Numbered from the stretch's first letter, positions 19,979 to 42,801 are shown. The stretch: DNA of 64,000 nucleotides from an uncultured Methanobrevibacter sp. (GCF_902764455.1 NZ_CACWVY010000003.1:19548-83547), one strand, 5' to 3'. A program made the numbers and translations. Notes: generated from the sequence alone by a model not told the origin.

Positions 19979-20791
19979 GTGAGAAATATGTTAGGATTAA
20001 ATAATAGAAATCAGGAAAATGAAGCAATCATAAAACCTCCAAGCAGCGATTCATATTCTATGATTTCCACCATATTTGCAAAAAACAATGAAATAAGCAT
20101 CAAAACATTATCACTCACAATACTCGATTTAATTAACAAAGATCAAATCAAATGCGATATTGATTTGGATGATACATATGAAGTAGGTAAAAAATTAACC
20201 CCTGAAGACATGGAAGTCATGAAAAAAATAACACTTAGAATTGCAAATAAAGGAGAATTAAAAACATCAGAAACCCTAGCAATTAACTTACTTAAAAATT
20301 TGAATAAAAATAAAAAATTCAACTTGAAGGCAATGGCAAAACAAACCCATAATGCTGCAAATGCCAACAAATTTGAAAAAGACCTTGCCGAATATGTCAA
20401 AGCCATTGAAAATGAAAATAATTATGATGGCAAAAACTACAAGGACATACTGGAAAACGGCAAATTAACAAAAAAAGGAAAAGAACTTAAAAAAGAATGG
20501 CAAAATTACCAAAATTACTTAAAATCACAGAATTTAACTGAAAAATACCCTCCGCAATCAGCAGAAGAAAATTCAATGCAAATCCTTTACGGTGCATGTT
20601 TTGACATTGAAAAAGATACATTGAAAATAAGGGAAAATAACACTTCTTTAACCAATTTTGTTGATAAGGACGGGTATAAATTATTGAACATAATTTTCAA
20701 TAATGCATTATTAAATGTGACTGAAAAAAGACGAGGAGATGGGATATTTTACGGAGTAAATGATAAATATACCATTCCCGGTGGAGGATAA
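19979..20791 (+). CDS. Hypothetical protein resembling the soluble C-terminal region of DUF2207 proteins
   Basis: TILDLINKDQI, LTKKGKELKKEWQNYQNYL, ILYGACFDI patterns. Confidence 0.5.
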   Translation: MRNMLGLNNRNQENEAIIKPPSSDSYSMISTIFAKNNEISIKTLSLTILDLINKDQIKCDIDLDDTYEVGKKLTPEDMEVMKKITLRIANKGELKTSETLAINLLKNLNKNKKFNLKAMAKQTHNAANANKFEKDLAEYVKAIENENNYDGKNYKDILENGKLTKKGKELKKEWQNYQNYLKSQNLTEKYPPQSAEENSMQILYGACFDIEKDTLKIRENNTSLTNFVDKDGYKLLNIIFNNALLNVTEKRRGDGIFYGVNDKYTIPGGG

Positions 20792-20836: not shown

Positions 20837-21520
20837 ATGGAATATGAAATACGCGGCGGAGCATTCCCTATGGTAATATGCACATTACAAAAAGGAGAAA
20901 CAATGAAAAATGAAACTGGAGCTATGGCTTTTATGACCTCCGATATGGAAATGGATACAAATACCGATGGAGGGCTTTTAAAAGGACTTGGAAGAGCACT
21001 ATCCGGAGATACATTGTTTTTTAATTTTTTCACAGCACAATCAGATAACCAGCAGATTGGATTTTCATCCTGTACCCCTGGAAAAATCATGGCAATCAAA
21101 TTAGATGGAACCAATACAATCATAGGCCAGAAAAATGCATTTTTGGCAGCAGAAAAAAGTGTGGACATTGACATTCATATAAGAACCAGACTCGGAGCAG
21201 GAATATTTGGTGGTGAAGGATTCATTCTCCAAAAGTTCAGCAACACAGGAATAGTATTTTTAGAAATTGACGGAGAAGTAATAGAGCATGACCTGCAACC
21301 TGGAGAAAAATTATTAGTTGACCCTGGACACATTGCAGCAATGGAAGAAAGCGTTGATTTTGACATTGAAAGAGTTAAAGGAGCCAAAAATATAATGTTC
21401 GGTGAAGGACTCTTTTTTGCAAGAATACAAGGTCCTGGAAAAGTATGGATACAAACCATGCCAATCAGCAGATTAGCTGAATCATTGATACCTTATTTAC
21501 CAAAACCAGACAGTAAATAA
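20837..21520 (+). CDS. AIM24/TIGR00266 family protein
   Basis: GETMKNETGAMAFM, GEGFILQKFS, VDPGHIAA, FGEGLFFARIQGPGKVWIQTMP. Confidence 0.9.
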   Translation: MEYEIRGGAFPMVICTLQKGETMKNETGAMAFMTSDMEMDTNTDGGLLKGLGRALSGDTLFFNFFTAQSDNQQIGFSSCTPGKIMAIKLDGTNTIIGQKNAFLAAEKSVDIDIHIRTRLGAGIFGGEGFILQKFSNTGIVFLEIDGEVIEHDLQPGEKLLVDPGHIAAMEESVDFDIERVKGAKNIMFGEGLFFARIQGPGKVWIQTMPISRLAESLIPYLPKPDSK

Positions 21521-21623: not shown

Positions 21624-23354
21624 TTAATTATTCTTAATTGTAATTACAGTACTGTTTAATCCCAGTACTCTCGAGTAATCAATATTGTCAGATATTTTAT
21701 TTAAAATGCTGATATTGTCAAATTTCAAATCTTCATTTTCAACAACCGGATTGAATTCAACACCTGTGTCCTTAATAGAAATTAGAATATTTTCATCATT
21801 ATCTCTAACAATTACGTCAATATTTTCTACAGTTTCATTAGTGTTAATTATATTGACAAGCATTTCCTCAATAGCCATACTGACCAAAGTGGCAGATTTG
21901 TTCTCAGACAAATAGTTTTGAACATCGCTAGATAATTCAACAGCTTCTTTAACATCCCCACTAATAGTATGCTCAAATACTGATTGGTCATCATTATGTT
22001 TATTGATAAAGAATCCTGAATACTCACCATCAGTTTTTTTACTGATGTATCTTGAATAAACAAAGATGAACATTATTGTTATGGCTTCCGCTATTGCAAA
22101 TGAAATCCAAATTCCATCACCACCTATTGCTAATGCAAGTATTATTGCAAGAGAAATCGGCAACACAAGCCCCTCAAGTAATGAGATTATTGTTGACAAC
22201 TGATTCTTTTGTATTGCCTGAGAGTAGAAAGTATATAAAAATGTAATTGCAGTACCAACATAAGATATTGCAAATATTCTAAGCGCATTTAAAACAACAG
22301 GAACCTGTGCAGAGTCTTTAACACTATACAACAACAATAATGATTGAGGATAAACAATGAATAAAACTGACAATGCCAAACTTGAAATTAAAACAATCTT
22401 CAATGCTCTGTGGATAACATAATTAACTCCTGAATAATCCTCTTCCTTGAAGTAAACAGATACAATCGGAGACATGGTCTGTGCCGTTCCAATTAAGAAA
22501 ATGTATAATATAAATAAACTGTTATAACAAATTCCAAAAGCTACCAAACCGAATTTCCCAAAATAAAGACCTAATAAAAAGTTTATGATGTACAATTTTA
22601 ATGTCAAATATAATTGTGTTGATGCGGATGAAAATCCTGATGTTACAATCTTTTTAAGATAACTTAATAATGGTTTAACTTTCAATTTGATAAATTGCAG
22701 TGTGCGCTCTGGTTTAAAGAAATAATAGGATATAATGATAGAACCCACAATATACCCTGTTGAAGTTGCAAGTGCAGCACCAGACAGACCAAAATTTAAA
22801 AATTTAATATAAACAAAGTCAAAACAAATATTAACAATATTTGCTAATAGTATTGCCCTGAATGGTAAAGAAGGAATACCATCCGCCCTTATAAAATAAG
22901 ATAAACTCATCATATAACATAAGAAAGGCATACCTATGATTAATGCTTTGAAAAACAGATTTACATCCGGAACTAACTCTGGCTGTGAAGCACATAGCAT
23001 TTGAGAGATAGGTCCTGAAAACAGCAATCCTACAATCATGATTAGAATTCCAATAGTTAAAAGTGAAATAATTGAAACCGAAAAGTAACTGTTGGATCCT
23101 TCTTCATCAAATTCCGCTTTTGCAACAGAACACAGTACACTGCCTCCCAACCCAATCATCCAATAAATTAAATTAACAAATGTAATTACCGGAGCCACAC
23201 TTTGAATTGCTGACAGATTTCCTGCACCGATTAAAAAACTAACAATCAATCCGTCAACAAAAAGACAGATGTTTCCTGCCATTGATGTGAATAAAGTCGG
23301 CAGGAAAAATTCTGAAAATTTACTTCTCAATAAATTATAATTTCTCTCATACAT
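21624..23354 (-). CDS. MATE-family efflux transporter with C-terminal RsbW-like (HATPase_c) domain
   Basis: About 12 TM MATE body (IRADG.P, NICFD, GLSGAALATS, GDGIWISF) plus a tail with AIEEMLVNII..DTGVEFNP; 11 bp from the NRPS stop. Confidence 0.88.
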   Translation of the reverse strand: MYERNYNLLRSKFSEFFLPTLFTSMAGNICLFVDGLIVSFLIGAGNLSAIQSVAPVITFVNLIYWMIGLGGSVLCSVAKAEFDEEGSNSYFSVSIISLLTIGILIMIVGLLFSGPISQMLCASQPELVPDVNLFFKALIIGMPFLCYMMSLSYFIRADGIPSLPFRAILLANIVNICFDFVYIKFLNFGLSGAALATSTGYIVGSIIISYYFFKPERTLQFIKLKVKPLLSYLKKIVTSGFSSASTQLYLTLKLYIINFLLGLYFGKFGLVAFGICYNSLFILYIFLIGTAQTMSPIVSVYFKEEDYSGVNYVIHRALKIVLISSLALSVLFIVYPQSLLLLYSVKDSAQVPVVLNALRIFAISYVGTAITFLYTFYSQAIQKNQLSTIISLLEGLVLPISLAIILALAIGGDGIWISFAIAEAITIMFIFVYSRYISKKTDGEYSGFFINKHNDDQSVFEHTISGDVKEAVELSSDVQNYLSENKSATLVSMAIEEMLVNIINTNETVENIDVIVRDNDENILISIKDTGVEFNPVVENEDLKFDNISILNKISDNIDYSRVLGLNSTVITIKNN

Positions 23355-23365
23355 CGTTTATACTC

Positions 23366-26300
23366 CTAAACACTGAAGAAATCCAAGTCAACCAGATATT
23401 TAATGAAATTATAGATATATTCCTCAGAAACAAATGGCCATTTAATGCCTAAACGATACATAGACTGTATAGTATAAACATTATCAACAGGAAGCCAAAT
23501 CTTTTTAACCTTTCCGGAACCTATCGAAGTAATAAGACCGGAGACTCCTTCCTGTTTTGTTTTATCCGCAAGAGCTTCATCCAAAGCTTTTTGATATTCA
23601 TCATCCTCAACAGGCTGAATATCCAATCCTAAAGGTCTGATAATTTCAATAATATCACCGAAGCTTACACTATGATAATCATATGGATGGAATACTCTAC
23701 AGTCCTTTGGAGTTTTGGACAGATTCAAAATAGCTTTTGCAGTTGTATCAATTGGTGAGAATTCAACGTTATTCATCAACATTGAATAAGGCATTTTACC
23801 AATGGTTACAAATGCTTTTAAACGATTGATGAAACCATTTGACTCAAAGTTAATCTGGAACTCACTGTCTGAACTTCTGGCCATCAGGTTACCCACCCTC
23901 ATGATTTTAACATCTAAATCATCATCAACAGCAGCTTCTAAAACAGCACGTTCAGCTAAAAATTTACTGCTGAGATATTGGTTATCTACTTTTTGGCCAA
24001 TAAACAAATCATCTTCTTTAAATTTAACATCAACAGGAGGATAGTTATTAACACTTTCACCAGCAATACTGTATGTGGATACTTGGACATATTTAGCATT
24101 TTTCATTTTCGCAAATTTCAATCCGTTGATAACTCCTCCGAAGTTAATGTCTTCTATATCTGTTCCTGATGAGAAATGTTTTACATTAGCCGCACAGTTT
24201 ATAATTGTATCTATTCTTTCAGGCATAAGCTTTTCAAAGTCTTCAAAGCTTGTAATGTCCCCCTCAATAACATGTAACCTCTCATCGAATAATTCTGCAT
24301 ATTCATCGGAGAAGTAATAGAATAGTAATGATTTTAACCTTTCTGCACCACTAAGAACTTTATTTGCCCTTATGAAACAGTAAATCTCATCAGTTTCATT
24401 TTCTAAAATTTCATGCAGCACATGTATTCCTAAAAATCCAGTAGCACCTGTAAGCAAAATATTGCCCAAATCATCTTCAAATTCACCATTGACTAATGAT
24501 TCAATGTTGTTTTTCTTAAGCAAATTATTGATTTTAGTGTAATCATAAGACATTTCTGATTTTTTCTCAACTGTCTCATCAGATAAGATGAATTCAGACA
24601 ATGCTCTTGGAGTAGGATTTGAGAAAACATCCCCATAATTTAGATTATAATTCCTGTTTAATGCTTCCATAGTGATTTTAGTTACTAAAAGTGATGTTCC
24701 ACCTATCTCAAAGAAGCTGTCAGTGACACTTACTTCATCAAGTCCTAAAATTTCTGCAAATAACTCAGCAAAGAATGCTTCAATTTCATTTTCAGGAGCA
24801 ACATACTCAGTTATTAAGACAGGCTCAGGCAAGTTTCTCAAGTCTGTTTTACCATTAACCGTCTGAGGCATTTCATCAAGCTCCATATAGACAGTAGGAA
24901 CCATATAATATACCAGTTTTTCAGCAAGTGAAGCTTTTAAATCATCAATATCAATGGAATATTCGTTTTCTTCACGATTTTCATCTTTAATATCATCATG
25001 AACTGTGAAATAAGCACATAAGTGGTCATTGCCTTTAATTTTCTTTACAACAACTGCAACAGATTTAATTCCAGGATATTTTGAAAGTCCCACTTCAATT
25101 TCACCTATTTCGATTCTTAATCCTCTGAGTTTAATCTGATTATCCATTCTTCCGAATACATAATAATCCCCATTTTCAGTGACTTTAACAAAGTCTCCGG
25201 AATGATAAAACCGTATTCCATTAATCACTTCATAACTTTCAGCATTTTTCTCAGGACGGTTCAAGTACTCTCTTGAAACTCCTTTTCCACCAATATACAA
25301 TTCTCCAATAACATTTGGAGGTAATGGATTGGAGTCGAAGTCCATAACCATTTCATGAACATTAAATAATTCTTTTCCAATGTGGATGTCTGAGCTTTCA
25401 AGCAACTGACCGTTACAGTAAACTGTTGTTTCAGTTGGACCATACATATTAAAGATTTTACCATTGGAATTTTTGGAAAGCAAATCATATAATCTTGGTG
25501 AGAACGGTTCTCCCGCATGAATATAAACTTTAAATCCATACATAGTTTCCTGCATTGCTTCAATATCCAAATATTGGAGTAAACGTGAAGGAGTAGCAAC
25601 ATAAACATTTGCTCCAGTCCTGTTGATTAAATCCATCATCTCAATTGGATCTTTGTATTCAGTATCATTTGCAAATACCATAGGAACTCCATTTAAAAGA
25701 GATCCCATTAACTCTTGCTGGAATACATCGAAAGCAACAGTTGTTGTGGACAATACTTTATAATCCTCTTTTTCAAGATTGTGCACCAATTCATATGTAC
25801 ATACATTTCTCGGATCAGGATATGCAAAGTTTGCAATATTTCCATGTTCCAGAATAACTCCTTTTGGAAGTCCTGTTGAACCGGAAGTGTAAATAAGATA
25901 TGCCATATTGTTTGGATGCACATCAGGATCAGGATTGGAAATATCCGCCTCTTTAAGCAATTCATTAATATCCAATAAGTTTTCACTGTAATCGCTTAAA
26001 TCAATGCCTTTTCTGTCAATTACATCATCAACAATGATGAATTTAGATTCACTGTCAGTTAGAACATGCTCAATTCTTTCAGAAGGATATTCTGAATCAA
26101 CAGGAATAAAGGCAGCACCTGATTTTAAAATACCAAATACTGATGCCATTACATTACTATCTCTATTTAAGATAAACATTATCCTGTCTTCAGGACCAAC
26201 ACCCTTTTTAATAAGACTGTGAGCAATTCTATTAGCTTTTTCATTTAATTGAGAGTAAGTAAATTCACCGTCGGTAGCATATAATATTACTCTATCAGGA

Positions 26301-29300
26301 TGCAGTTCAACTTGTTTTTCAAATATCTTATTCAACCTCTCTTCAGGAATTTCATCATATTCCAAATCATCTACACCCCAATCATCATTTTCAATGATGG
26401 AAATATCTTTCATTAATGTATTTTTATCGAATGTTTGGAATTTATTTAAAACAATTCTAATACAATCGAGGAATGTATTAATTAAGGTTTCAGAGTATAA
26501 CTGGTCATTGTATTCACAGAAAATTCTGTATTGGCCATCAACTTCAACCACATTAATATTTATTTTGAATTTCAAGCCTTCGTAATCCAAAGATTCTCTT
26601 TCAACCTTCATCCCCCCGATTTCAATGTCTTCAATGATTTTTCCATGATATGCATATAATATTTCAGGAGTGATATCGAATTCATTTGAAATTTCTGTTA
26701 AAGGATATGAAGAATAAGTTAATACATTTAACCATTCTCCATTAATATATTCCATGTATTCCCTAAGACTTGAATCAGAATTTAATTTTAATGCTAAAGG
26801 TAATGTTTTAACCATCATGGCCAAGGTTTTTTGCTGGTTCGGATTGAATCTACCATTAGTAATAGTTGCAATCAATACATTACGGTTATAAACAAACTTG
26901 TTTAAAACAAAGGAGGTTGCTGCCAGGAATAAATTATTCTGACTCATGTTTGACTCAGAACAGAATTCATCAATGGACTGTTTATCAAGGAAAATATCTT
27001 TCATTGCAGCCTTACCCTGTGATTCATCACCGTTAATGTCCTGTGTAATTACTGTTGCATCATCAAACTCTTTAATTTTATTTGAAAAGAACAATTTTGC
27101 TTCCTCATATAAACTGGACTGTTCTGTTTTTATCTCATTTAATGAATATTCAAATCCGTCAAGTTCTTCTAAATCATAGTCTTTTCCATCATATATTTTG
27201 GATATTTCATCGAACAAAATATTGAGAGATGTTCCATCAACAATAATATGGTGGAAATCAGCAAGCAGCATTGAATTTCCAACTATCTTGAATCTGAATA
27301 ATGGTCCCTCATCAAGTTTAAATGGGGTGACAAATTCATCCAAATTAATTTCATCGACTGTTTCAATTAAATCATCGACTTTGAGATTATCTCTTCTTTG
27401 CTGATAAACTTCACCTTTCTCCATTACTATCCTTGTTTTTAAGTATGGGTGATTTTCAATAGCTTTGACTATTGAAGATTTGAGTTTATCCACGTCAATA
27501 CCTTCACTGAATTCCATTTTCTTTGGAAGGTTGTAAGCAGTATTTTCAGGATCTTTAATACAGTCAAAGTAAACACCAAGCTGATTTGAAGTTAACGGAT
27601 ACAATTCCTGAACTTCACCAGCAACGTCATCTTCAATTTTAATTTCAGATGCAATTTTTTCGATGGTTTTGTATCTCAATATTTCTGTAACATTCAACTG
27701 TGCATTGAAATTGTTATAAATTGCAGAAGTTAATTTAATTACAGATAAAGAAGTCAGACCTATGTTAAATAAATCAGTGTTTACACCAAATTCATCAATT
27801 CCTAAAATTTCAGAGACAATATCAAATAATTCTTTTTCTATATCTGTTCTAGGTTTTATGAATTCATCAACATTAATTTCAGGGTCAGGTAAATTCTTAA
27901 AGTCAGTTTTACCATTAGGTGTTTTAGGAAACGCTTCAAGCTGTGTGAAATATGACGGAACCATGTATTCAGGTAAAGAATCTATTAAATGCTGTTTTAA
28001 ATCATCAATGTCAATATCACATGAAGCTGTGAAATAAGCACAGAGATGTTCAATAGAATTAATCTTTTTAACAACAACTTTTGAAAGAGTGACATTTTCA
28101 TAATTCGCAATAGCTCCTTCGATTTCAGACAGCTCAATTCTCAAACCTCTAAGTTTAATTTGAGTATCATTACGTCCTGAAACATACAATTCTCCATTAT
28201 CATCCCGTTTACCTAAATCTCCAGTATTATAATATGGAATATCATTTAAGGTTAAAAAGACCTTTTGAGTCTGTTCATCATTGCCCAAATAGCCTCTTGC
28301 AATTCCAGCTCCACCAACATAAATTTCTCCAGTCACATGAGCAGGCAATTGATTTCCATCGATATCCATTATCTTATCAACTACATTAAGCATTTTCCAA
28401 CCTGCAGTGACCTTATTGGAATCCATCAGCTTATAATGTGATGCAATTGTAACTTCAGTTGGTCCGTATGAATTGTAAATATCCGCATCAGTGTATTTTG
28501 TAAGTCTGTCATATAACACTGGAGGGAATCCTTCCCCACCTACAATAATCACATTACATTTTCCAACAACATCCTGGATTTCTTCAATTTGAAGATATTC
28601 AAGTAATCTGGTAGGTGTGGAACCGAATCCTTCAGCATCAGTTGCATTGAATAATTCAACTAATTCCAACGGATCCATTGCCTGTTCATCATTAGCAAAT
28701 ACAACAGGCAGACCATTTAAAATTGTACCGAATATTTCCCTTAGGAATACGATAAATGAAACTGTGGAAATGGATATGAACTTACTGCATTTGTGATTCA
28801 GCTCATAAATCGGAACATTTTCCTCAACATTGGCAACATAGTTTGTAATTCCTCTGTGAGTAATCATTACCCCTTTTGGTTTTCCTGTTGAACCTGAAGT
28901 ATAAATCAGGAAACATAAATTATCAGGAGTTAATTCAATTTGAGGATTGGAATCATCATCTTCTTTGAGGAGTTCATCAACATCTATCCGATTTTCACCT
29001 TCATAGTCAATTTCAGAACTGGTTATGACAAATTTGGAGTCACTGTCGTCAAGAATTTGTTCAATCCTGTTTTTTGGATAATTCGGATCAATCGGAATGA
29101 ATGCTGCTCCCGCTTTAACAATACCTAAAACTGCAGCAATCAAATCACTGTTCCTCCTCATCATGAACATTACTCTGTCTTCAATGTTAACTCCTCTTTT
29201 GATTAAAGCATTGGCGATTTTATTGGCTTTTTTATTTAATTCATCATATGTGAGTTCGCAGTCTTCAGCATAAAGGATTGTCTTTTGAGGATTTTCAGCT

Positions 29301-31186
29301 GCGATATTTTCAAATACCTTATTTACAATTCCTTCATTTGCAAGCTCAATTTCAAATCCTTCATCCAATTCAAGTTCTCTTTTAATAGAAATGTTTTTAA
29401 GCAATGAATCTGTGAAAGCAAATCTGTCGATTAAAACATCCATTGCATCAAGGAATGCTTCCATTAATTCTTTTGAATAAAATGATTCATCATAGCGGAT
29501 ATTGATTTTTCCGCTTTCAAAATTAAAGATTAATTTATAATCTCTGGATTTGGAATAATCATCAACAAAGAATAAAATTTCGCTTTCAAAGTTCAGTTTT
29601 TTATTATTCAATAATGGATAATTACTGTAATTTTTGAAATAAGTTTTGAAATCTTCAAAATATTCTTTAACAGTCAAATCTGTGTTGAAATGATATCCTG
29701 CAGCAGTACGATTAAAAGCAATCAGAATGTCTTTTGAAAATGAAAATTTAGTTAAATTATACAAGAAAGTTGCCAGCAGCACTTTATCTTTTGATAAATG
29801 ATATTTATTAGCCAGGTCCTTTAATTTTTCAATATCAATTGCTTTGGAAATTTTATTGAAAATTACTTCATCATCATTAACATCAGGAGAAATTGCAGTT
29901 GGATTATCAAAGGAATTAATTAAATTATTATAGTAATTTTCTCCTTTGAAAAAGTCAATTACATTGACATGATAATCTTTACATTTTATAGAAGAATCTT
30001 CACTGACCTGTTTTGCCAAATCATTAAGGCCACTTGCAATTTCGCGTATTTCCATTTCTACAAAACAAGATTTATCATATTCTATGAATATAGACTGCAA
30101 ACCATCTTTATCAGAATAATTTTTATTTATTCTAAAATGCAATGGGAATTTGATATCTTTTTGAAGTGTCAGGAATTTTGAGTCGAAATTGGTTGAGTTT
30201 GAAACGATTGAAATCATTGAAATACAATCAGGATCAATACCCTCATTTCTTAAATCGGTTGTATATTCACTGAATTGTAATTTTGCATGTCCCAAACCTT
30301 CTTTTAAAACTGATTTGGAATAAGCAAGCAATTCATCAAAGGTCAATTCTTCATCATATTTTAACCTTAAAGGAATAGTATTTACAAACATTCCCAATGC
30401 TTCTTCCTGACCAAAGTATCTGCCATGAACTGAAGTGTTGAAAACCATATCAGCAAACTGTGCATTATCTTTTTTGGATTTTGCAATGTATAAGAAATTC
30501 AGTGCCAGTGCAGTAACAAATGGGGAATAATCAAATTCTGGAATCTTTTCAAGAAGCACCTCAAAGAACCCAAATTGAGATTCATCGAATGAATACCAGT
30601 CCTGAGAATAATCTTTTAATGAATCCAACCAATATTTTTTATCGTCATCAGCTTCAGCAGATTCAAGATAATCCTTTTCAGCATTTACATAAGTCTCATA
30701 TGAATAATCAATTGGAATGTACTGCTCATTATTCTTAAGGCAATTCATACATTTTTCAATTTCCTGCGGAACAACTGAAAACAAGGAAGTTCCATCAAGC
30801 AAAATATGCTGAACAACACCAATGAGAACAGTTGAGGAATCGGTTTTTAAAACTGCCCATTTATATAAAGGAGCATCGAAAATATCATCAAAAGGATCTT
30901 CCAGATAATCCTTAATAAATTCACCGATGTCTTCAGTCACTTCAAAACTTTCAACATTTGTTTCAACAACATCTTCATAATATTGCTTGAAATCGCCGCT
31001 TTCATCAAATTTTATCTGTAAATTAAGATAATTCCGCGAAATAATTTCAATTGAAGATTTTACATACTCAAAATCATTTAAATCATAATCCTTTCTGAAT
31101 TTTAGATAGAATGAATCATTTTGAGGATTGTTCATTTCAGAAAATAATAACATTTTCTGACTAGAAGATAAATCAAATAATACCAT
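23366..31186 (-). CDS. Two-module non-ribosomal peptide synthetase with terminal thioester reductase (C-halfC-A-T-C-A-T-R)
   Basis: C1 QHILLDG; A1 YTSGSTGKPKG, YGPTE, YNTGDLG, PKTPNGKTD; T1 FNIGLTSL; C2 HHIIVDG; A2 YTSGSTGLPKG, YGPTE, YHSGD; T2 FFEIGGTSL; R ILLTGATGFLG, YLSSK. Confidence 0.97.
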   Translation of the reverse strand: MVLFDLSSSQKMLLFSEMNNPQNDSFYLKFRKDYDLNDFEYVKSSIEIISRNYLNLQIKFDESGDFKQYYEDVVETNVESFEVTEDIGEFIKDYLEDPFDDIFDAPLYKWAVLKTDSSTVLIGVVQHILLDGTSLFSVVPQEIEKCMNCLKNNEQYIPIDYSYETYVNAEKDYLESAEADDDKKYWLDSLKDYSQDWYSFDESQFGFFEVLLEKIPEFDYSPFVTALALNFLYIAKSKKDNAQFADMVFNTSVHGRYFGQEEALGMFVNTIPLRLKYDEELTFDELLAYSKSVLKEGLGHAKLQFSEYTTDLRNEGIDPDCISMISIVSNSTNFDSKFLTLQKDIKFPLHFRINKNYSDKDGLQSIFIEYDKSCFVEMEIREIASGLNDLAKQVSEDSSIKCKDYHVNVIDFFKGENYYNNLINSFDNPTAISPDVNDDEVIFNKISKAIDIEKLKDLANKYHLSKDKVLLATFLYNLTKFSFSKDILIAFNRTAAGYHFNTDLTVKEYFEDFKTYFKNYSNYPLLNNKKLNFESEILFFVDDYSKSRDYKLIFNFESGKINIRYDESFYSKELMEAFLDAMDVLIDRFAFTDSLLKNISIKRELELDEGFEIELANEGIVNKVFENIAAENPQKTILYAEDCELTYDELNKKANKIANALIKRGVNIEDRVMFMMRRNSDLIAAVLGIVKAGAAFIPIDPNYPKNRIEQILDDSDSKFVITSSEIDYEGENRIDVDELLKEDDDSNPQIELTPDNLCFLIYTSGSTGKPKGVMITHRGITNYVANVEENVPIYELNHKCSKFISISTVSFIVFLREIFGTILNGLPVVFANDEQAMDPLELVELFNATDAEGFGSTPTRLLEYLQIEEIQDVVGKCNVIIVGGEGFPPVLYDRLTKYTDADIYNSYGPTEVTIASHYKLMDSNKVTAGWKMLNVVDKIMDIDGNQLPAHVTGEIYVGGAGIARGYLGNDEQTQKVFLTLNDIPYYNTGDLGKRDDNGELYVSGRNDTQIKLRGLRIELSEIEGAIANYENVTLSKVVVKKINSIEHLCAYFTASCDIDIDDLKQHLIDSLPEYMVPSYFTQLEAFPKTPNGKTDFKNLPDPEINVDEFIKPRTDIEKELFDIVSEILGIDEFGVNTDLFNIGLTSLSVIKLTSAIYNNFNAQLNVTEILRYKTIEKIASEIKIEDDVAGEVQELYPLTSNQLGVYFDCIKDPENTAYNLPKKMEFSEGIDVDKLKSSIVKAIENHPYLKTRIVMEKGEVYQQRRDNLKVDDLIETVDEINLDEFVTPFKLDEGPLFRFKIVGNSMLLADFHHIIVDGTSLNILFDEISKIYDGKDYDLEELDGFEYSLNEIKTEQSSLYEEAKLFFSNKIKEFDDATVITQDINGDESQGKAAMKDIFLDKQSIDEFCSESNMSQNNLFLAATSFVLNKFVYNRNVLIATITNGRFNPNQQKTLAMMVKTLPLALKLNSDSSLREYMEYINGEWLNVLTYSSYPLTEISNEFDITPEILYAYHGKIIEDIEIGGMKVERESLDYEGLKFKININVVEVDGQYRIFCEYNDQLYSETLINTFLDCIRIVLNKFQTFDKNTLMKDISIIENDDWGVDDLEYDEIPEERLNKIFEKQVELHPDRVILYATDGEFTYSQLNEKANRIAHSLIKKGVGPEDRIMFILNRDSNVMASVFGILKSGAAFIPVDSEYPSERIEHVLTDSESKFIIVDDVIDRKGIDLSDYSENLLDINELLKEADISNPDPDVHPNNMAYLIYTSGSTGLPKGVILEHGNIANFAYPDPRNVCTYELVHNLEKEDYKVLSTTTVAFDVFQQELMGSLLNGVPMVFANDTEYKDPIEMMDLINRTGANVYVATPSRLLQYLDIEAMQETMYGFKVYIHAGEPFSPRLYDLLSKNSNGKIFNMYGPTETTVYCNGQLLESSDIHIGKELFNVHEMVMDFDSNPLPPNVIGELYIGGKGVSREYLNRPEKNAESYEVINGIRFYHSGDFVKVTENGDYYVFGRMDNQIKLRGLRIEIGEIEVGLSKYPGIKSVAVVVKKIKGNDHLCAYFTVHDDIKDENREENEYSIDIDDLKASLAEKLVYYMVPTVYMELDEMPQTVNGKTDLRNLPEPVLITEYVAPENEIEAFFAELFAEILGLDEVSVTDSFFEIGGTSLLVTKITMEALNRNYNLNYGDVFSNPTPRALSEFILSDETVEKKSEMSYDYTKINNLLKKNNIESLVNGEFEDDLGNILLTGATGFLGIHVLHEILENETDEIYCFIRANKVLSGAERLKSLLFYYFSDEYAELFDERLHVIEGDITSFEDFEKLMPERIDTIINCAANVKHFSSGTDIEDINFGGVINGLKFAKMKNAKYVQVSTYSIAGESVNNYPPVDVKFKEDDLFIGQKVDNQYLSSKFLAERAVLEAAVDDDLDVKIMRVGNLMARSSDSEFQINFESNGFINRLKAFVTIGKMPYSMLMNNVEFSPIDTTAKAILNLSKTPKDCRVFHPYDYHSVSFGDIIEIIRPLGLDIQPVEDDEYQKALDEALADKTKQEGVSGLITSIGSGKVKKIWLPVDNVYTIQSMYRLGIKWPFVSEEYIYNFIKYLVDLDFFSV

Positions 31187-31275
31187 AAGTTCACCAAAAT
31201 ATTTATATTAGTAAAATATATGTAACCCAAAATATATAAAAATGTATTATTTAATATTAATTGTAAGGGATTATT

Positions 31276-31575
31276 ATGAATATTGAAAAAAATTATAATG
31301 GAAAAGAATTAACATTGTCTATTGAAGGACGTATAGACACAATAACTTCAAAAGATTTAGATAATACAATCAATGAGGAAATGGGAAATTTTGATTCATT
31401 AATATTGGATTTTGCGGATTTAGAATATATCTCAAGTGCAGGATTAAGAGTAGTAATTGCAACTCAAAAAAAATTAAAGCCAAACAATATTCCTCTTGTC
31501 ATTAAAAATACCAATGAAACTGTTAAAGGAATATTTAAAATGTCAGGTTTTGATAAAATCCTTAACATAGAATAA
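31276..31575 (+). CDS. STAS-domain anti-anti-sigma-like protein
   Basis: EGRIDT, LILDFADLEYISSAGLR (phospho-Ser motif), IFKMSGFDKI. Confidence 0.93.
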   Translation: MNIEKNYNGKELTLSIEGRIDTITSKDLDNTINEEMGNFDSLILDFADLEYISSAGLRVVIATQKKLKPNNIPLVIKNTNETVKGIFKMSGFDKILNIE

Positions 31576-31662
31576 ACTATTCTGACTCGTAGAAGCCATG
31601 AATTTATAGAATTTCCATAAACACTATTAATGGAGTAAAAAAATTAATTAATGCATTAATAT

Positions 31663-31705
31663 GACAATTCATTTTAGACCTAAAGAAGTCAAAGATTTTG
31701 CCAAA
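31663..31705. mobile_element. Degenerate IS200/IS605-end-like palindromic repeat, copy 2
   Basis: GACAATTCATTTTAGACCTAAAGAAGTCAAAGATTTTGCCAAA; about 35/45 identical to 1568-1612 by manual alignment. Confidence 0.5.
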
Positions 31706-31710
31706 TAGAG

Positions 31711-32091
31711 ATGAAATCAATGAAATTAAATCGAGATATCAACGAATTATATAATTTGAATGATTATATAATTGGAGTAATTCAAAAAGAAGATCTCCAA
31801 GTAAACCTAATAATTGAAGAAGTCTTTGCAAATATTGTCGAATATTCCAATAGCGAATTTATAATTGTTAATGCTGAATTTAATGATTCAATATTAACAG
31901 TGAAATTTATCGACAACGGAATTCCTTTCAATCCTCTATTAAAAGAAGATCCTGAACTTCCAAATACTGTTGAAGAAGCCCAAATTGGAGGACTGGGAAT
32001 TTTTTTAACAAAAGAACTGGCGGACAATATTGATTATCAGTATATAAACGGTGAAAATCATTTAAAAATTATCAAAAAAGTGGATTCATAA
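31711..32091 (+). CDS. RsbW/SpoIIAB-like Ser kinase (HATPase_c)
   Basis: IIEEVFANIVEYS (N box), DNGIPFNP (G1), GGLGIFL (G2). Confidence 0.9.
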   Translation: MKSMKLNRDINELYNLNDYIIGVIQKEDLQVNLIIEEVFANIVEYSNSEFIIVNAEFNDSILTVKFIDNGIPFNPLLKEDPELPNTVEEAQIGGLGIFLTKELADNIDYQYINGENHLKIIKKVDS

Positions 32092-32115: not shown

Positions 32116-33132
32116 TTAATCTATTCTCAAAGGAAGATTTCCAATCACATTAGCTTTGCTAGAAACTTCCACCGTGTCTTCAAGACGAACTCCGAATTCC
32201 CCTTCCAGATAGATTCCGGGTTCAACAGTAATGACCATGCCCTTTTCAATTATTGTTTCATCGCGTAGAGAAAATCCAGGAGTTTCATGAATATCCAAAC
32301 CTAAACTGTGACCTGTTGAATGGATAAATTTATCTGCATAACCATAATCCTTAATAATGTCACGTGCAACTTTATCGATTTGACAACATTTAAGGCCAGG
32401 TTTAACTGCTTTTATTGCTTTGTCATGAGCTTCAGCAACAATGTTCCAAATTTCATGCTGGCGTTCCGTATACACTATTGTACGAGTATTATCTGAACAA
32501 TAACCTTCAAAAATAGCACCCCAATCAATTAAAATTGGCTGTGACAATTTTTTATCCTGAGGAACCGCATGAGGAAGACTTGAATTAGCACCACTTGTAA
32601 CAATTGTGTCAAATGATTCCTTTGAAGCACCATTTTCAATCATATGTCTTACAAGGTCAAATGCTACCTCTTTTTCAGTGCAGTTATTGTTTAAAATGTC
32701 AAGTTGCAGGAATGATTTTTGAGCAATTTCAGTTGCTTTTGTGATTTTTTCAATCTCGTAAGGTGTTTTAATCATTCTTTGTTTGTCTATGTATGTTTTG
32801 GAATCTACATCAAAATCATCCCTAAATCTAACATATGTGCTGAACGGCAGACTAGGCTCGATAGCTAAGCTTTTGATTCCTTCTTTTTTTAGTTCATTAA
32901 CAATAACTTCAAAAGACTCATATTCCTTTACTTCAATCGATGAATTTTTTTCTGCCAGTTCCATATCCATTCCGGATGCATAAATTATTGGATTTTCTTT
33001 TATAATACAAAAAGCAAAACTGGTAGGTCGATACCCTGAAATATATTCAACATTTGTAAATTTTGTAAGCAGATAAGCTTGAAAATCATCTTTTTCCAAA
33101 TCTTTTAAAATATTATTAATATGCAAATCCAT
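32116..33132 (-). CDS. pepQ: Xaa-Pro aminopeptidase/prolidase (M24)
   Basis: DWGA..YCSDNTRT, GHSLGLDIHE, TVEPGIY, GVRLED: metal ligands intact. Confidence 0.9.
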   Translation of the reverse strand: MDLHINNILKDLEKDDFQAYLLTKFTNVEYISGYRPTSFAFCIIKENPIIYASGMDMELAEKNSSIEVKEYESFEVIVNELKKEGIKSLAIEPSLPFSTYVRFRDDFDVDSKTYIDKQRMIKTPYEIEKITKATEIAQKSFLQLDILNNNCTEKEVAFDLVRHMIENGASKESFDTIVTSGANSSLPHAVPQDKKLSQPILIDWGAIFEGYCSDNTRTIVYTERQHEIWNIVAEAHDKAIKAVKPGLKCCQIDKVARDIIKDYGYADKFIHSTGHSLGLDIHETPGFSLRDETIIEKGMVITVEPGIYLEGEFGVRLEDTVEVSSKANVIGNLPLRID

Positions 33133-33248: not shown

Positions 33249-33890
33249 ATGATTAAATTTACTAGTAGCGAAGTAAGAGATTTAATAATTGCATTTATTG
33301 TTATTTCACTTTGTTTTGCAATAGCGAATGCTGGAAGAAATGTGAATGCAATACTTCACTTATTGCCTATGATTATGGTTGGTGTAGGTGCAGGTTTCAT
33401 ATTGCACGAGCTAGGACATAAATTTGTGTCAATGAAATATGGTTATTGGGCTGAATTTAAATTATGGCCTCAAGGGTTAATTTTTGCGCTCATCACATCA
33501 TTTTTCGGATTTGTTTTTGCAGCACCAGGTGCAGTTTACACATATGCAAATTACATGACTGATGAGATTAACGGTAAAATATCCGTTGCAGGTCCGGTTG
33601 TCAATATAATTCTTGCAATAATATTTTTAGCAATATGCATTGCAGTTTACCCGTCCGCATTTCACTCACAGACTTCAGTGTTAATCTTAAATATTTGTGC
33701 TTTAGGTTTCAACATCAACAGTTTTCTTGCGGTATTTAACTTGCTTCCAATTGGAAACCTTGATGGATCAAAAGTATTGCGATGGAATATCGGAATTTGG
33801 CTTATTACAATCGCTATTGCAGGAATAATGACATATATGTCAATGACAATAGGTGTTGAAAATATTATTAGATTAATTATAGGATTCTAA
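33249..33890 (+). CDS. Site-2 (M50) membrane zinc metalloprotease
   Basis: HELGH, AGPVVN, FNLLPIGNLDG. Confidence 0.92.
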   Translation: MIKFTSSEVRDLIIAFIVISLCFAIANAGRNVNAILHLLPMIMVGVGAGFILHELGHKFVSMKYGYWAEFKLWPQGLIFALITSFFGFVFAAPGAVYTYANYMTDEINGKISVAGPVVNIILAIIFLAICIAVYPSAFHSQTSVLILNICALGFNINSFLAVFNLLPIGNLDGSKVLRWNIGIWLITIAIAGIMTYMSMTIGVENIIRLIIGF

Positions 33891-33893
33891 ATT

Positions 33894-35096
33894 ATGAATG
33901 AAGAACTTACATACTTTAAGGGAACTCACAGAGTAATTGCTCCCAAAAAAACCATTGAAAATACAGAAGATAAATTAAAAATAGCAGGAATTACCCGTAT
34001 TGCAGATATTACAGATTTGGACAGGATTGGACTTCCCATATATACTGCTATCAGACCTACTGCCGAAGATGGTGCAGTCAGTATTTATGGAGGGAAAGGA
34101 ATTTCAAAAGACCATGCTAAAGCATCAGCAATGATGGAAGGTTTTGAGAGATATTCCGCCGAAAGGCAGGAATCCGACGAAACTGTGAATGCAACCATAG
34201 AAGAAATTTCTGAAAAAGGAGAATATATTGATCCCAAATCCCTGAATCTTCCCAAAGAATTTGAAAAGGAAGACCTCTCTAATTTGAATTTGGAATGGAG
34301 CATTTCACATGATATAATTTCAGATAAAGATTATTTTATTCCAACCAATGCAATTTATCATCCATACATTAACGATGCATCCACCCGGAGCCTATTCAAA
34401 TCAAATACCAATGGTCTGGCATCCGGAAACATTTTGGAAGAAGCCATTTTACATGGAATATTTGAAGTTATTGAAAGGGACGCATGGAGCATTTTTGAGT
34501 TAACCCATAAAAACTATGCTCAAATTGATTTAAACAGTATTGAAAGCAATGTTGTTAATGATACTCTTGATAAATTTGAAAGTAAAGGAATTAAAATCAA
34601 ATTAATGGATTTTACTGCTGACATTAATGTTCCAACAATAGCTGCTTCTGCCGATGACACCGTGACTAAAGATGCAGGACTTCTCACATTGGGAATGGGA
34701 ACACATCTTGATCCTGAAGTTGCAATTTTAAGGGCGCTTACTGAAGTTGCACAAAGCAGAGCAACACAAATCAACGGAGCCAGAGAAGATACCGTTAGAG
34801 CTGATTTTGCACGTGAAGCCGGTTATGAACGAATGAAGCGCATCAATAAATATTATTTCAGGCAGGAAGAGGATAAAATAAATCTATCAGATATCGAAAA
34901 CAAATCAACAACATCAATTACTGAAGACATTGAAATTGTTAAAGATGAACTGATGGCAAATGACATTGAAAAGATTCTCTACACTGATTTGACAAGACCT
35001 GAATTGGACATCAGTGTTGTTAGAGTCATAATTCCTGAAATGGAAATTTATGCTATTGACCAGTCAAGAGCAGGATACAGATTTTTAAAAATATGA
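33894..35096 (+). CDS. ycaO: YcaO, TfuA-associated thioamide-forming type
   Basis: AMMEGFER, SNTNGLASG, EVIERDAW, RALTEVAQSR; no C-terminal PxP; adjacent to tfuA. Confidence 0.93.
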   Translation: MNEELTYFKGTHRVIAPKKTIENTEDKLKIAGITRIADITDLDRIGLPIYTAIRPTAEDGAVSIYGGKGISKDHAKASAMMEGFERYSAERQESDETVNATIEEISEKGEYIDPKSLNLPKEFEKEDLSNLNLEWSISHDIISDKDYFIPTNAIYHPYINDASTRSLFKSNTNGLASGNILEEAILHGIFEVIERDAWSIFELTHKNYAQIDLNSIESNVVNDTLDKFESKGIKIKLMDFTADINVPTIAASADDTVTKDAGLLTLGMGTHLDPEVAILRALTEVAQSRATQINGAREDTVRADFAREAGYERMKRINKYYFRQEEDKINLSDIENKSTTSITEDIEIVKDELMANDIEKILYTDLTRPELDISVVRVIIPEMEIYAIDQSRAGYRFLKI

Positions 35097-35100
35097 TAAA

Positions 35101-35760
35101 ATGATAAAGATTATTGTTTATACAGGATTATCACTTCCTTTCAGCGAAGCAAAAGAAATTTTAGATTCACACGAGGACATTGAAGTAATTTACAAAAGAC
35201 CTATTAAAAGAGGAGAATTAAGTTTAGCTTTAAAAGAAAATCCAGATATCATTGCAATAATCGACGGAGTTTTTCACCAAAACTCTGCTGTAGGACATAA
35301 GGAAATTTTAAATGTCTTAAAAAGAGGAATTAAAGTTTATGGTGCATCAAGTATGGGAGCACTTAGAGCATCAGAGCTTGACAGTTTAGGTATGGTTGGA
35401 ATAGGCTATGTTTATGAACAATATGCAAGCGGAAAAGTTGATTCCGATGATGATGTTGCTGTGATGCTTGATTGCGAAACATTGGAAGCATTATCAGAAC
35501 CACTAATTAACATGAATTATGTTTTTGAAAATGCAGCAGATAAAAACATCATCACCACAGAAGAAAAAGCAGAACTGCGTGAAATTGCCAAAAAGACATA
35601 TTATCCTCACAGAAACTATTCTCAAACTTTAGCACAATCCAGTTTAAGTCCCGATAAAAAAGACAAACTCATTGATTTTATTCGCACATCACCGGACATT
35701 AAAAAAGAAGATGCAAAAGAGCTGCTTCACTTCATACAAGATGAACTTATCAAATCTTAA
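35101..35760 (+). CDS. tfuA: TfuA-like protein
   Basis: IIDGVFH..AVGHKEI, GASSMGALRASEL, DDDVAV, LSEPLIN. Confidence 0.93.
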   Translation: MIKIIVYTGLSLPFSEAKEILDSHEDIEVIYKRPIKRGELSLALKENPDIIAIIDGVFHQNSAVGHKEILNVLKRGIKVYGASSMGALRASELDSLGMVGIGYVYEQYASGKVDSDDDVAVMLDCETLEALSEPLINMNYVFENAADKNIITTEEKAELREIAKKTYYPHRNYSQTLAQSSLSPDKKDKLIDFIRTSPDIKKEDAKELLHFIQDELIKS

Positions 35761-42600: not shown

Positions 42601-42801
42601 TTCAGTATAAACTGTATCAGCCATATCAATGTCAGTTTGGATTGTAGCCGGATTACTGTTGACCAAAACAGTTTCAATACCTTCCTCTCTTAATGATTTA
42701 CATGCTTGTGAACCTGAGTAATCGAACTCTGCAGCTTGTCCAATTTGAATAGGTCCAGAACCAATAATTAATACTTTTTTAATATCTTTATCAACTGGCA
42801 T
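39625..42801 (-). CDS. carB: Carbamoyl-phosphate synthase large subunit
   Basis: [41 protein letters not shown], second ATP-grasp domain, MGS domain. Confidence 0.99.

What the first reader, a model, noticed from the sequence alone, without database searches (positions are those of the whole stretch)
21624..32091. Compact archaeal NRPS locus: reductase-terminated two-module NRPS, exporter and divergent partner switch
Seen: a 2606-aa C-halfC-A-T-C-A-T-R enzyme, 11 bp from a MATE exporter and 89 bp head-to-head with STAS and RsbW-like genes. Established: NRPSs are rare in archaea but have been reported in rumen Methanobrevibacter. Similar C-A-T-C-A-T-R enzymes from gut Clostridia and Ruminococcus bromii (RupA) release peptide aldehydes or pyrazinones. 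Inference: this methanogen makes and exports a reductively released small molecule of unknown structure, probably via a gene acquired from gut Firmicutes.
Basis: partly seen in the sequence, partly recalled or inferred. Interest (0 to 1): 0.8.

Follow-up and report, generated by a model that had tools for sequence, protein, structure and literature searches.

The report
Known methanogen peptide-synthetase cluster, exporter switch
This is a rumen methanogen's copy of a peptide-making gene cluster first noted in Methanobrevibacter ruminantium in 2010; it is common in that archaeal family, its product is still unknown, and its export pump carries a built-in docking domain for the neighbouring phospho-switch proteins.

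Summary
All four ORFs, the 11-bp and 89-bp gaps and the domain string C, half-C, A, T, C, A, T, R are real.

The locus is not new in kind. It is the orthologue of the M. ruminantium M1 cluster mru0066-mru0071 (Leahy 2010): NRPS 81% identical, MATE 83%, STAS 71%. Condensation domains occur in 54 of 151 sampled Methanobacteriaceae species.

In most genera the cluster is a co-directional cassette: PPTase, NRPS, MATE, STAS, RsbW-like kinase, PP2C phosphatase. The window holds a rearranged, reduced form, with the PPTase and PP2C genes elsewhere in the genome.

Three further points:
- The MATE pump ends in a SpoIIAB/RsbW-fold domain that lacks the G2 ATP-lid box in all 22 homologues examined. This pump type travels with the NRPS in archaea and Clostridia.
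- The first adenylation domain lacks Asp235. Its 10-residue code IVRGIGSIAK is the same in 18 of 20 archaeal NRPS sequences, while Clostridial relatives keep Asp.
- The archaeal enzymes form one clade next to Clostridial ones. The gene also appears to move between rumen Methanobrevibacter genera.

Most likely function: a reductively released, N-capped or non-amino-acid-started dipeptide-like aldehyde or alcohol, exported by a pump that the STAS switch may gate. The product and the gating are inferred, not shown.

The parts
23366..31186 (-). NRPS gene, 2606 aa: C, half-C, A1, T1, C2, A2, T2, R
   Evidence: ORF; Pfam and NCBIfam; motifs. 81% identical to the M. ruminantium M1 NRPS in L106.
29969..31171 (-). 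N-terminal full condensation domain (aa 6-406), motif QHILLDG
   Evidence: Pfam Condensation, 98 bits, profile 7-445 of 456. PDB sequence hits include the surfactin synthetase 461-aa C domain. The HHxxxDG motif is kept in homologues from other genera.
29321..29965 (-). Half-C: remnant of the C-terminal lobe of an elongation-type C domain (aa 408-622)
   Evidence: hhalign against the C2 alignment: 100% probability, E 8e-49, C2 columns 168-422. Pfam alone gives only E 0.064.
27887..29314 (-). Adenylation domain A1 (aa 625-1100). Code IVRGIGSIAK, with no Asp235
   Evidence: HMMER alignment to LgrA places the Ile under the FD Asp. The code is the same in 18 of 20 archaeal NRPS sequences.
27647..27832 (-). 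Carrier domain T1 (Ser1146 in IGLTSL)
   Evidence: Pfam PP-binding 1119-1180; motif.
26351..27613 (-). Internal condensation domain C2 (HHIIVDG)
   Evidence: Pfam Condensation 1192-1583; motif.
24833..26338 (-). Adenylation domain A2. Code DVQVIAMVYK, with Asp235 present; variable among homologues
24581..24775 (-). Carrier domain T2 (Ser2165 in IGGTSL)
23369..24460 (-). Terminal thioester reductase domain (GATGFLG, YLSSK)
   Evidence: Pfam NAD_binding_4 2245-2486. Best PDB sequence hit is 6VTJ, the Mru_0351 PCP-R, at E 4e-106; AusA R follows at 1e-55.
22023..23354 (-). MATE transporter body (aa 1-444), about 12 hydrophobic segments
   Evidence: Pfam MatE 86 bits. NCBIfam MATE models score below their cut-offs. 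Hydropathy with a K/R-rich central loop.
21627..22022 (-). C-terminal SpoIIAB/RsbW-like tail of the MATE (aa 445-576). N-box and G1 are kept; the G2 box is absent
   Evidence: BLASTP to the free kinase, E 8e-5. 22 of 22 homologous tails hit HATPase_c_2. hhalign 97.8%. Alignment. AF2 pLDDT 81. Foldseek top 18 hits are SpoIIAB, RsbW or UsfX.
31187..31275 (.). 89-bp AT-rich divergent intergenic region, presumed to hold archaeal promoters for both directions
   Evidence: Sequence. No promoter test was possible; the sigma-70 scan is irrelevant here and shows no enrichment.
31276..31575 (+). STAS anti-sigma-antagonist-like protein with the conserved YISSAGLR serine motif
   Evidence: Pfam STAS and NCBIfam TIGR00377 above cut-off. 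The serine motif is conserved in the 20 cluster STAS proteins aligned (YTSSAGLR in L106, YISSSGLR in L087).
31711..32091 (+). Free RsbW-like Ser kinase with N, G1 and G2 boxes intact
   Evidence: Pfam HATPase_c_2, 51 bits. Alignment invariants E36 E37 N41 D68 G70 G93 G94 G96.

Best explanation
The locus is a rumen Methanobrevibacter copy of the NRPS gene cluster family that is widespread in Methanobacteriaceae. It is the orthologue of mru0066-mru0071 in M. ruminantium M1.

Proposed biosynthesis (inferred):
1. The single Sfp-type PPTase, encoded elsewhere in the genome, primes T1 and T2.
2. A1 lacks the alpha-amino-binding Asp235 and has the archaea-wide invariant code IVRGIGSIAK. It loads a conserved, probably non-alpha-amino carboxylic substrate.
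3. The N-terminal C domain may cap that substrate.
4. C2 joins it to the amino acid loaded by A2, whose pocket is lineage-variable and here Pro-like.
5. The R domain releases the product reductively as an aldehyde or alcohol.
6. The translationally close MATE pump exports it.

Proposed regulation (inferred): the STAS protein, the free RsbW-like kinase and PP2C phosphatases encoded in trans form a phospho-switch. Its most likely target is the non-catalytic RsbW-like tail of the pump, so the switch would gate export rather than a sigma factor.

What is shown and what is inferred: the gene identities, domain integrity, family membership and cassette conservation are shown. The product and the gating are inferred.
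For: Identity and integrity.

Orthology to the M1 cluster:
- L106 lies on a contig of 2,937,203 bp, the published M1 genome size.
- It carries PP2C and STAS divergent from an NRPS (81% identity) followed by a MATE (83%).
- This matches the description in PMC2812497.

Cassette conservation:
- PPTase, NRPS, MATE-tail, STAS, RsbW-like kinase and PP2C are co-directional in 11 of the 20 fetched Methanobacteriaceae loci. In L111 the same order runs off the contig end at the NRPS gene, so no PPTase is seen. The other loci are rearranged or reduced.
- NRPS followed by MATE-tail occurs in about 55 of 63 Methanobrevibacter loci.
- Condensation domain and tail co-occur in 44 genomes, against 10 with C only, 3 with tail only and 94 with neither.
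- The same NRPS plus MATE-tail pair, with or without STAS or PPTase, occurs in Clostridia.

Tail as an RsbW-fold pseudokinase.

Switch components:
- The STAS serine motif is conserved.
- The free kinase motifs are intact.
- The genome has five SpoIIE/PP2C genes and one PPTase.
- It has no sigma-70 family protein.

A1 without Asp235, invariant code.

Reductive release: the R domain is closest to Mru_0351 R and AusA R. Related gut NRPSs give dipeptide aldehydes (PMC12327764).
Against: - No product, transcript or protein interaction was observed.
- The products of the M1 enzymes were still unknown in 2021 (PMC8024701).
- Aldehyde versus alcohol cannot be predicted from an R-domain sequence (same paper).
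- The role of the N-terminal C domain is unclear if A1 loads a substrate without an amine, and no acyl-donor gene is in the cassette.
- This window lacks the PP2C and PPTase in cis.
- Several MATE-tail paralogues in the same genome have no adjacent STAS.
- Most Clostridial loci fetched have no STAS beside the pump.
- SpoIIAB-type proteins act as dimers, so the tail might instead pair with the free kinase, or with another tail, rather than bind STAS.
Confidence: 0.6

Rival explanations
1. The partner switch controls transcription of the NRPS operon, as Leahy et al. proposed. The free RsbW-like protein would sequester an unidentified archaeal transcription regulator and STAS would release it. 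The MATE tail would be incidental or only an anchor.
For: - STAS and kinase are divergent from the NRPS across a shared 89-bp promoter region in this window.
- This is the published suggestion (PMC2812497).
- The free kinase keeps all its motifs, so it is a working RsbW-type protein.
Against: - No DNA-binding gene belongs to the conserved cassette.
- No sigma-70 family protein is in the genome.
- In most genera the switch genes are co-directional and downstream of the pump, not at a promoter.
- An RsbW-fold domain is physically built into the pump in every lineage.
Confidence: 0.2
2. The enzyme makes a free-amine dipeptide aldehyde that cyclises to a pyrazinone or dihydropyrazinone, as AusA and the gut Clostridial A-T-C-A-T-R enzymes do.
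For: - The best NCBIfam model is AusA (1062 bits).
- The R domain resembles AusA R.
- Related gut enzymes give dipeptide aldehydes that were isolated as pyrazinones (PMC12327764).
Against: - The AusA score is far below its 2500-bit cut-off.
- A1 lacks Asp235, so an alpha-amine on residue 1 is doubtful.
- A full C domain with its catalytic His precedes module 1, which is typical of N-capped products.
- Without a free alpha-amine the aldehyde cannot close to a pyrazinone.
Confidence: 0.1
3. The locus is decaying horizontally acquired cargo with no present function. In this genome it is a compact remnant that has lost its PPTase and phosphatase.
For: - PPTase and PP2C are missing from the locus, unlike the full cassette.
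- A 135-bp spacer separates STAS from the kinase gene, where the two are contiguous in most relatives.
- In M1 the pump tail is split off as a separate ORF.
Against: - All four ORFs are intact and every catalytic motif is kept.
- Orthologues at 82-87% identity persist in many species.
- The A1 code is invariant at about 45-50% overall identity, which indicates purifying selection.
- A PPTase and five PP2C genes exist in trans.
Confidence: 0.07

Closest known systems
Methanobrevibacter ruminantium M1 NRPS cluster mru0066-mru0071 (Leahy et al. 2010, PMC2812497)
   Same: Orthologous. The NRPS is 81% identical (88% in the A1-to-R core), the MATE body 83% and STAS 71%. The layout is the same: STAS divergent from NRPS followed by MATE. 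The A1 code is the same and the A2 code nearly so (DVQIIAMVYK).
   Different: M1 has a PP2C phosphatase beside STAS and no free RsbW-like gene there. Its pump tail is a separate 92-aa ORF. The window has a free kinase and an intact fusion but no PP2C in cis. The 2010 paper called the pump simply MatE and described neither the tail nor the A1 anomaly.
Six-gene Methanobacteriaceae cassette: PPTase, NRPS, MATE-tail, STAS, RsbW-like kinase, PP2C (seen here in L096-L111)
   Same: Same NRPS architecture (about 2.6 kaa), same A1 code, same tail lacking G2, same STAS serine motif.
   Different: The window's version is rearranged, with the switch genes divergent upstream. It is also reduced, with PPTase on contig C10 and the PP2C genes on C18, C20 and C48.
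Gut and rumen Clostridial C-A-T-C-A-T-R dipeptide-aldehyde NRPSs (Ruminococcus bromii rup / ruminopeptin; the Fischbach-lab family) and S. aureus AusA
   Same: Two modules plus a terminal R. A MATE with the same RsbW-like tail lies next to the NRPS in 5 of the 9 Clostridial loci fetched (L087, L088, L089, L091, L092; in L089 only the tail end lies inside the fetched stretch). L090 has a 558-aa MATE whose alignment stops at query residue 535, so no tail was detected there. One locus also has STAS. Identity is 30-39% over the full length.
   Different: The Clostridial A1 domains keep Asp235 and have no half-C insert. The AusA equivalog cut-off is not reached. None of the fetched bacterial genomes is named, so identity with rup or the published clusters was not tested.
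SpoIIAA/SpoIIAB/SpoIIE and RsbV/RsbW/RsbU partner-switching modules of Bacillus
   Same: A STAS protein with a conserved Ser. A GHKL Ser kinase with N, G1 and G2 boxes. PP2C/SpoIIE phosphatases. The tail model superposes on SpoIIAB and RsbW at TM 0.65-0.8.
   Different: No sigma factor exists in the genome. A second, G2-less RsbW-fold domain is fused to a transporter and is the candidate output.
Mru_0351 PCP-R didomain structure (PDB 6VTJ; Deshpande et al. 2021, PMC8024701)
   Same: Closest solved relative of T2-R (E 4e-106). It is an archaeal NRPS reductase of the same family.
   Different: It comes from the four-module paralogue, not the two-module enzyme. No product is known for either.

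Membership tests
Modular (type I) NRPS | Condensation domains with the catalytic His of HHxxxDG | tested here: met
   QHILLDG (C1) and HHIIVDG (C2). Pfam Condensation.
Modular (type I) NRPS | Adenylation domains with core motifs A3-A10, including the A10 Lys | tested here: met
   Both A domains carry A3, A5, A8 and A10. TIGR01733 scores 646 bits against a cut-off of 317.
Modular (type I) NRPS | Carrier domains with the phosphopantetheine-accepting Ser, and a PPTase in the genome | tested here: met
   IGLTSL and IGGTSL. One Sfp-type PPTase at C10:80267-80905.
Reductase-terminated NRPS | C-terminal SDR-type R domain with a TGxxGxxG nucleotide site and catalytic YxxxK | tested here: met
   GATGFLG and YLSSK. 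NAD_binding_4, 126 bits. 6VTJ and AusA R are the best PDB hits.
AusA-type pyrazinone synthetase (NF047350 equivalog) | Score above the curated equivalog cut-off | tested here: not met
   1061.8 bits against a cut-off of 2500.
AusA-type pyrazinone synthetase (NF047350 equivalog) | Both modules load alpha-amino acids (Asp235 present), leaving a free N-terminal amine for cyclisation | tested here: not met
   A1 has Ile at position 235, and a full C domain lies upstream.
M. ruminantium mru0066-0071-type cluster | Orthologous NRPS, MATE and STAS in conserved order | tested here: met
   81%, 83% and 71% identity with the same divergent layout in L106, which is M1 judged by its contig length of 2,937,203 bp.
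Partner-switching module (RsbV/RsbW/RsbU type) | STAS antagonist with the conserved phosphorylatable Ser | tested here: met
   The YISSAGLR motif is conserved in the 20 cluster STAS proteins aligned. TIGR00377 scores 65.6 against a cut-off of 53.45. Phosphorylation itself is not testable here.
Partner-switching module (RsbV/RsbW/RsbU type) | GHKL Ser kinase with N, G1 and G2 boxes | tested here: met
   The free protein at 31711-32091 keeps all three. The RsbW equivalog cut-off is not reached: 21 against 145.
Partner-switching module (RsbV/RsbW/RsbU type) | PP2C/SpoIIE phosphatase | tested here: met
   Five in the genome, none in the window. It is in cis in most other genera.
Partner-switching module (RsbV/RsbW/RsbU type) | A sigma factor as the sequestered target | tested here: not met
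   No Sigma70_r2 match in the 98%-complete genome, while the control matched in 10 bacterial genomes.
MATE (MOP superfamily) efflux transporter | Two MatE repeats and about 12 transmembrane helices | tested here: met
   Pfam MatE, 86 bits, 2 stretches. About 12 hydrophobic segments. NCBIfam TIGR00797 scores 117, below its 147 cut-off, so this is a divergent member.
MATE (MOP superfamily) efflux transporter | Transport of the NRPS product | not testable with these tools
   Supported only by adjacency and co-occurrence.

The most novel reading that the evidence does not exclude
The cluster may encode a partner switch whose output is transport, not transcription. The phosphorylation state of the STAS protein is set by the free RsbW-like kinase and by sensor PP2C phosphatases. 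That state would decide whether STAS docks on the ATP-lid-less RsbW-fold tail of the MATE pump, and so would open or close export of a reactive reduced peptide.

The peptide itself may start with an archaea-specific non-alpha-amino building block, selected by the invariant A1 pocket IVRGIGSIAK.
Probability: 0.3. Interest if true: 0.75.

Novelty: new member of a known kind. Interest (0 to 1): 0.45.

Why it matters
Rumen methanogens are the main biological source of livestock methane, and what small molecules they secrete is almost unknown. This cluster family is present in about a third of Methanobacteriaceae species and has had no known product for more than fifteen years.

The comparison made here gives three concrete handles:
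- A fixed, unusual first building block.
- A variable second building block.
- A pump with a built-in switch domain, which suggests regulated release.

If the STAS-to-pump link is real, it would explain what bacterial-type partner switches do in organisms without sigma factors. It would also add a new way of controlling secondary transporters.

Tried and rejected
- Sigma-70 promoter and terminator scan: no enrichment, and not applicable to an archaeon.
- Pfam on the half-C region alone gave only E 0.064. Profile-profile comparison was needed.
- STAS co-occurrence across the family is uninformative. STAS is in 97 of 151 genomes, many as SulP-type transporter domains. Only the adjacency of small STAS genes to the pump is informative.
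- Oribacterium NK2B42 has the MATE-tail fusion without an adjacent NRPS, at a contig end beside a transposase. The fusion is therefore not exclusive to NRPS clusters.
- The literature held nothing on the A1 code, on archaeal partner switches tied to NRPSs beyond Leahy 2010, or on any product. The Guo et al. 2017 paper could not be opened.
- The A2 'Pro-like' reading rests on my memory of the code DVQLIAHVVK and on the Clostridial A2 code DVQFIAHVAK in L095. No specificity predictor was available, so it stays a weak guess.
- The Fisher test on co-occurrence (p about 1e-24) ignores shared ancestry and is only descriptive.

Full report
**1. Observation**

- NRPS 23366-31186 (-), 2606 aa.
- MATE 21624-23354 (-), 576 aa, 11 bp downstream of the NRPS.
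- STAS 31276-31575 (+), 89 bp head-to-head with the NRPS.
- RsbW-like gene 31711-32091 (+).

Pfam and NCBIfam confirm two Condensation, two AMP-binding and two PP-binding domains and a terminal NAD_binding_4 domain. They also confirm MatE, STAS and HATPase_c_2.

The N-terminal C domain is full length (profile positions 7-445 of 456). The 'half C' (aa 408-622) is nearly invisible to Pfam (E 0.064). A profile built from 20 homologues aligns to the C-terminal lobe of the internal C domain with 100% probability, E 8e-49. It is a remnant of an elongation-type C domain.

All catalytic motifs are intact: QHILLDG and HHIIVDG, IGLTSL and IGGTSL, the A3-A10 cores, GATGFLG and YLSSK.

**2. It is a published cluster type**

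Leahy et al. 2010 (PMC2812497) described M. ruminantium M1 mru0068. It is a two-module NRPS with a terminal reductase. [quoted passage not shown] The paper suggested a bacterial origin.

One genome handle (G338) has a single contig of 2,937,203 bp, the published M1 size. Its locus L106 reads as PP2C and STAS divergent from an NRPS (81% identical to the window's), followed by a MATE (83%) and a small separate tail ORF. The window is therefore an orthologue of that cluster.

Deshpande et al. 2021 (PMC8024701) solved the PCP-R of the paralogue Mru_0351 and stated that both products were unknown. That structure is the best PDB sequence hit of the window's T2-R (E 4e-106). I found no later characterisation.

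**3. Distribution**

- The MATE with its extension is full length in 63 loci of Methanobrevibacter or Methanosphaera species genomes. About 55 of these have the NRPS directly upstream, and about half have STAS with or without the kinase nearby.
- In an even sample of 151 Methanobacteriaceae species, 54 have Condensation domains, in 18 of 27 GTDB genera. 47 have the pump tail.
- 44 genomes have both, 10 only C, 3 only the tail and 94 neither. This is descriptive only, because the lineages are not independent.
- The window's own genome has at least six NRPS loci and five MATE paralogues with a C-terminal extension. It has one PPTase, five SpoIIE/PP2C genes and no sigma-70 family protein.

**4. 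The full cassette**

I fetched and annotated twenty loci from different genera.
- Eleven show the complete co-directional order: PPTase, NRPS (about 2.6 kaa), MATE-tail, STAS, RsbW-like kinase, PP2C (about 640 aa, with the SpoIIE domain at the C-terminus). In L111 the same order runs off the contig end at the NRPS gene.
- The Methanobrevibacter versions are rearranged, with the switch genes, with or without PP2C and PPTase, divergent upstream.
- The window is the most reduced form.

The partner-switch genes are therefore true members of the cluster, not chance neighbours.

**5. The pump tail**

- Residues 445-576 of the MATE match the free kinase (30% identity, E 8e-5).
- All 22 aligned tails hit HATPase_c_2 (best E 7e-13). 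The profiles match at 97.8%.
- The tails keep the N-box (EE..N) and G1 (DxG) but all lack the G2 GGxG box. The free kinases keep N, G1 and G2.
- An AF2 model (pLDDT 81) finds SpoIIAB, RsbW and UsfX as its top 18 PDB matches.
- Hydropathy suggests a 6+6 helix body with a K/R-rich central loop, which places the tail in the cytoplasm (the placement is inferred).
- The fusion is a wide family. 303 representatives at 50% identity match the tail, and many of these are 570-600 aa long. Members include rumen Oribacterium and Selenomonadaceae, and IMG labels some of them 'efflux pump/anti-sigma regulatory factor'.
- The cluster STAS proteins all keep the YISSAGLR serine motif.

**6. The A domains**

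A1 reads STVSFIVFLRE where A2 reads TTVAFDVFQQE. HMMER aligns the Ile under the Asp of both LgrA A domains.

The ten-residue A1 code IVRGIGSIAK is identical in 18 of 20 archaeal NRPS sequences (the window's included), which share only 44-55% overall identity across genera. The nine Clostridial relatives all have Asp235. The A2 codes vary widely.

Module 1 therefore selects a fixed, unusual substrate and module 2 is the variable position. The window's A2 code DVQVIAMVYK resembles a proline code. This rests on my memory and on the Clostridial code DVQFIAHVAK, and is weak.

**7. Origin**

In 300 sampled Clostridia, 22 have a T-R homologue at E below 1e-60. The best are 41-47% identical and lie in ORFs of 2433-3004 aa.

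Five of the nine loci fetched have a MATE with the same RsbW-like tail beside the NRPS, and a sixth (L090) has a MATE without a detected tail. One locus has STAS and two have a PPTase.

A maximum-likelihood tree of the A1-to-R core puts all 20 archaeal sequences on one side of a branch (SH-aLRT 100). With a midpoint root they lie next to the Clostridial sequences. This fits one old transfer of the NRPS-pump pair between Clostridia and Methanobacteriaceae. The direction is inferred from the bacterial predominance of NRPSs.

Within methanogens the gene also moves:
- CarB from the window is 94-95% identical to same-genus genomes and 81% to the M. ruminantium genus.
- The NRPS is 84-85% identical within the genus and 86-87% to the other genus.

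**8. Mechanism**

- Shown: an intact, primed-in-trans assembly line with reductive release chemistry, a dedicated pump, and a complete phospho-switch parts list.
- Inferred: a capped or non-amino-acid-started dipeptide-like aldehyde or alcohol is exported. STAS, according to its phosphorylation state, docks on the pump's pseudokinase tail and gates export.
- The main rival is transcriptional control through an unknown partner of the free kinase (Leahy's view). A pyrazinone product and a decaying relic are less likely (see the rival explanations).

**9. Earlier notes of this scan**

Notes on this genome (e1-5236430, -31, -32) and on other genomes (e1-2145934, e1-5211724, e1-1067130, e1-2473494) reach similar readings. 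They are AI notes and not independent evidence. I re-derived each point here.

**10. Verdict**

This is a real, intact and well-conserved biosynthetic locus, and a new member of a kind known since 2010. Its remaining interest lies in the unknown product, the invariant odd A1 pocket and the possible transporter-directed partner switch.

Noticed in passing
window 39625-42801 versus 23366-31186 (compared with G338, G393, G427, G429, G441): Housekeeping CarB is 94-95% identical to same-genus genomes and 81% to the M. ruminantium genus. The NRPS is 84-85% identical within the genus and 86-87% to the other genus. This suggests recent exchange of the cassette between rumen Methanobrevibacter lineages.
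   Followed up: partly
L106:13817-15552 (M. ruminantium M1): In M1 the pump is split into a 486-aa MATE ORF and a separate 92-aa ORF that holds most of the RsbW-like tail. This could be a frameshift, or a naturally unfused version.
   Followed up: no
window 31576-31710: A 135-bp non-coding spacer separates STAS from the RsbW-like gene. In most relatives the two genes abut or overlap (coordinates).
   Followed up: no
genome contig C18:25892-35903: A second switch locus without an NRPS. It holds two PP2C genes, a 586-aa MATE with an extension, STAS, and a 711-aa protein with an RsbW-like C-terminus.
   Followed up: no
genome contigs C42, C52, C31/C75, C55, C40, C33: There are at least five further NRPS loci. 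Two of them are followed directly by a MATE paralogue with an extension (C42, C52). A lone MATE-tail paralogue lies on C33.
   Followed up: partly
window 32116-33132 (-): An M24 Xaa-Pro-type peptidase (Peptidase_M24 plus Creatinase_N) lies right after the kinase gene, beside an NRPS whose A2 pocket looks Pro-like. It is not conserved next to the cluster in M1, so this is probably coincidence.
   Followed up: no
window 33894-35760 (+): A YcaO (293 bits) and TfuA (155 bits) gene pair, preceded by an M50-like membrane peptidase at 33249-33890. This pair is the kind linked to thioamide formation in methanogens; that link is from my own knowledge and was not tested.
   Followed up: partly
window 20837-21520 (+) and 19979-20791 (+): Downstream of the pump are an AIM24-family protein and a DUF2207_C membrane protein. 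They have no evident link to the cluster.
   Followed up: no
L070 (Oribacterium sp. NK2B42): A MATE-tail fusion sits beside a Y1 transposase at a contig end, with a STAS-APH fusion protein 8 kb away. The same genome has an R-domain NRPS fragment 42% identical to the window's T-R.
   Followed up: no
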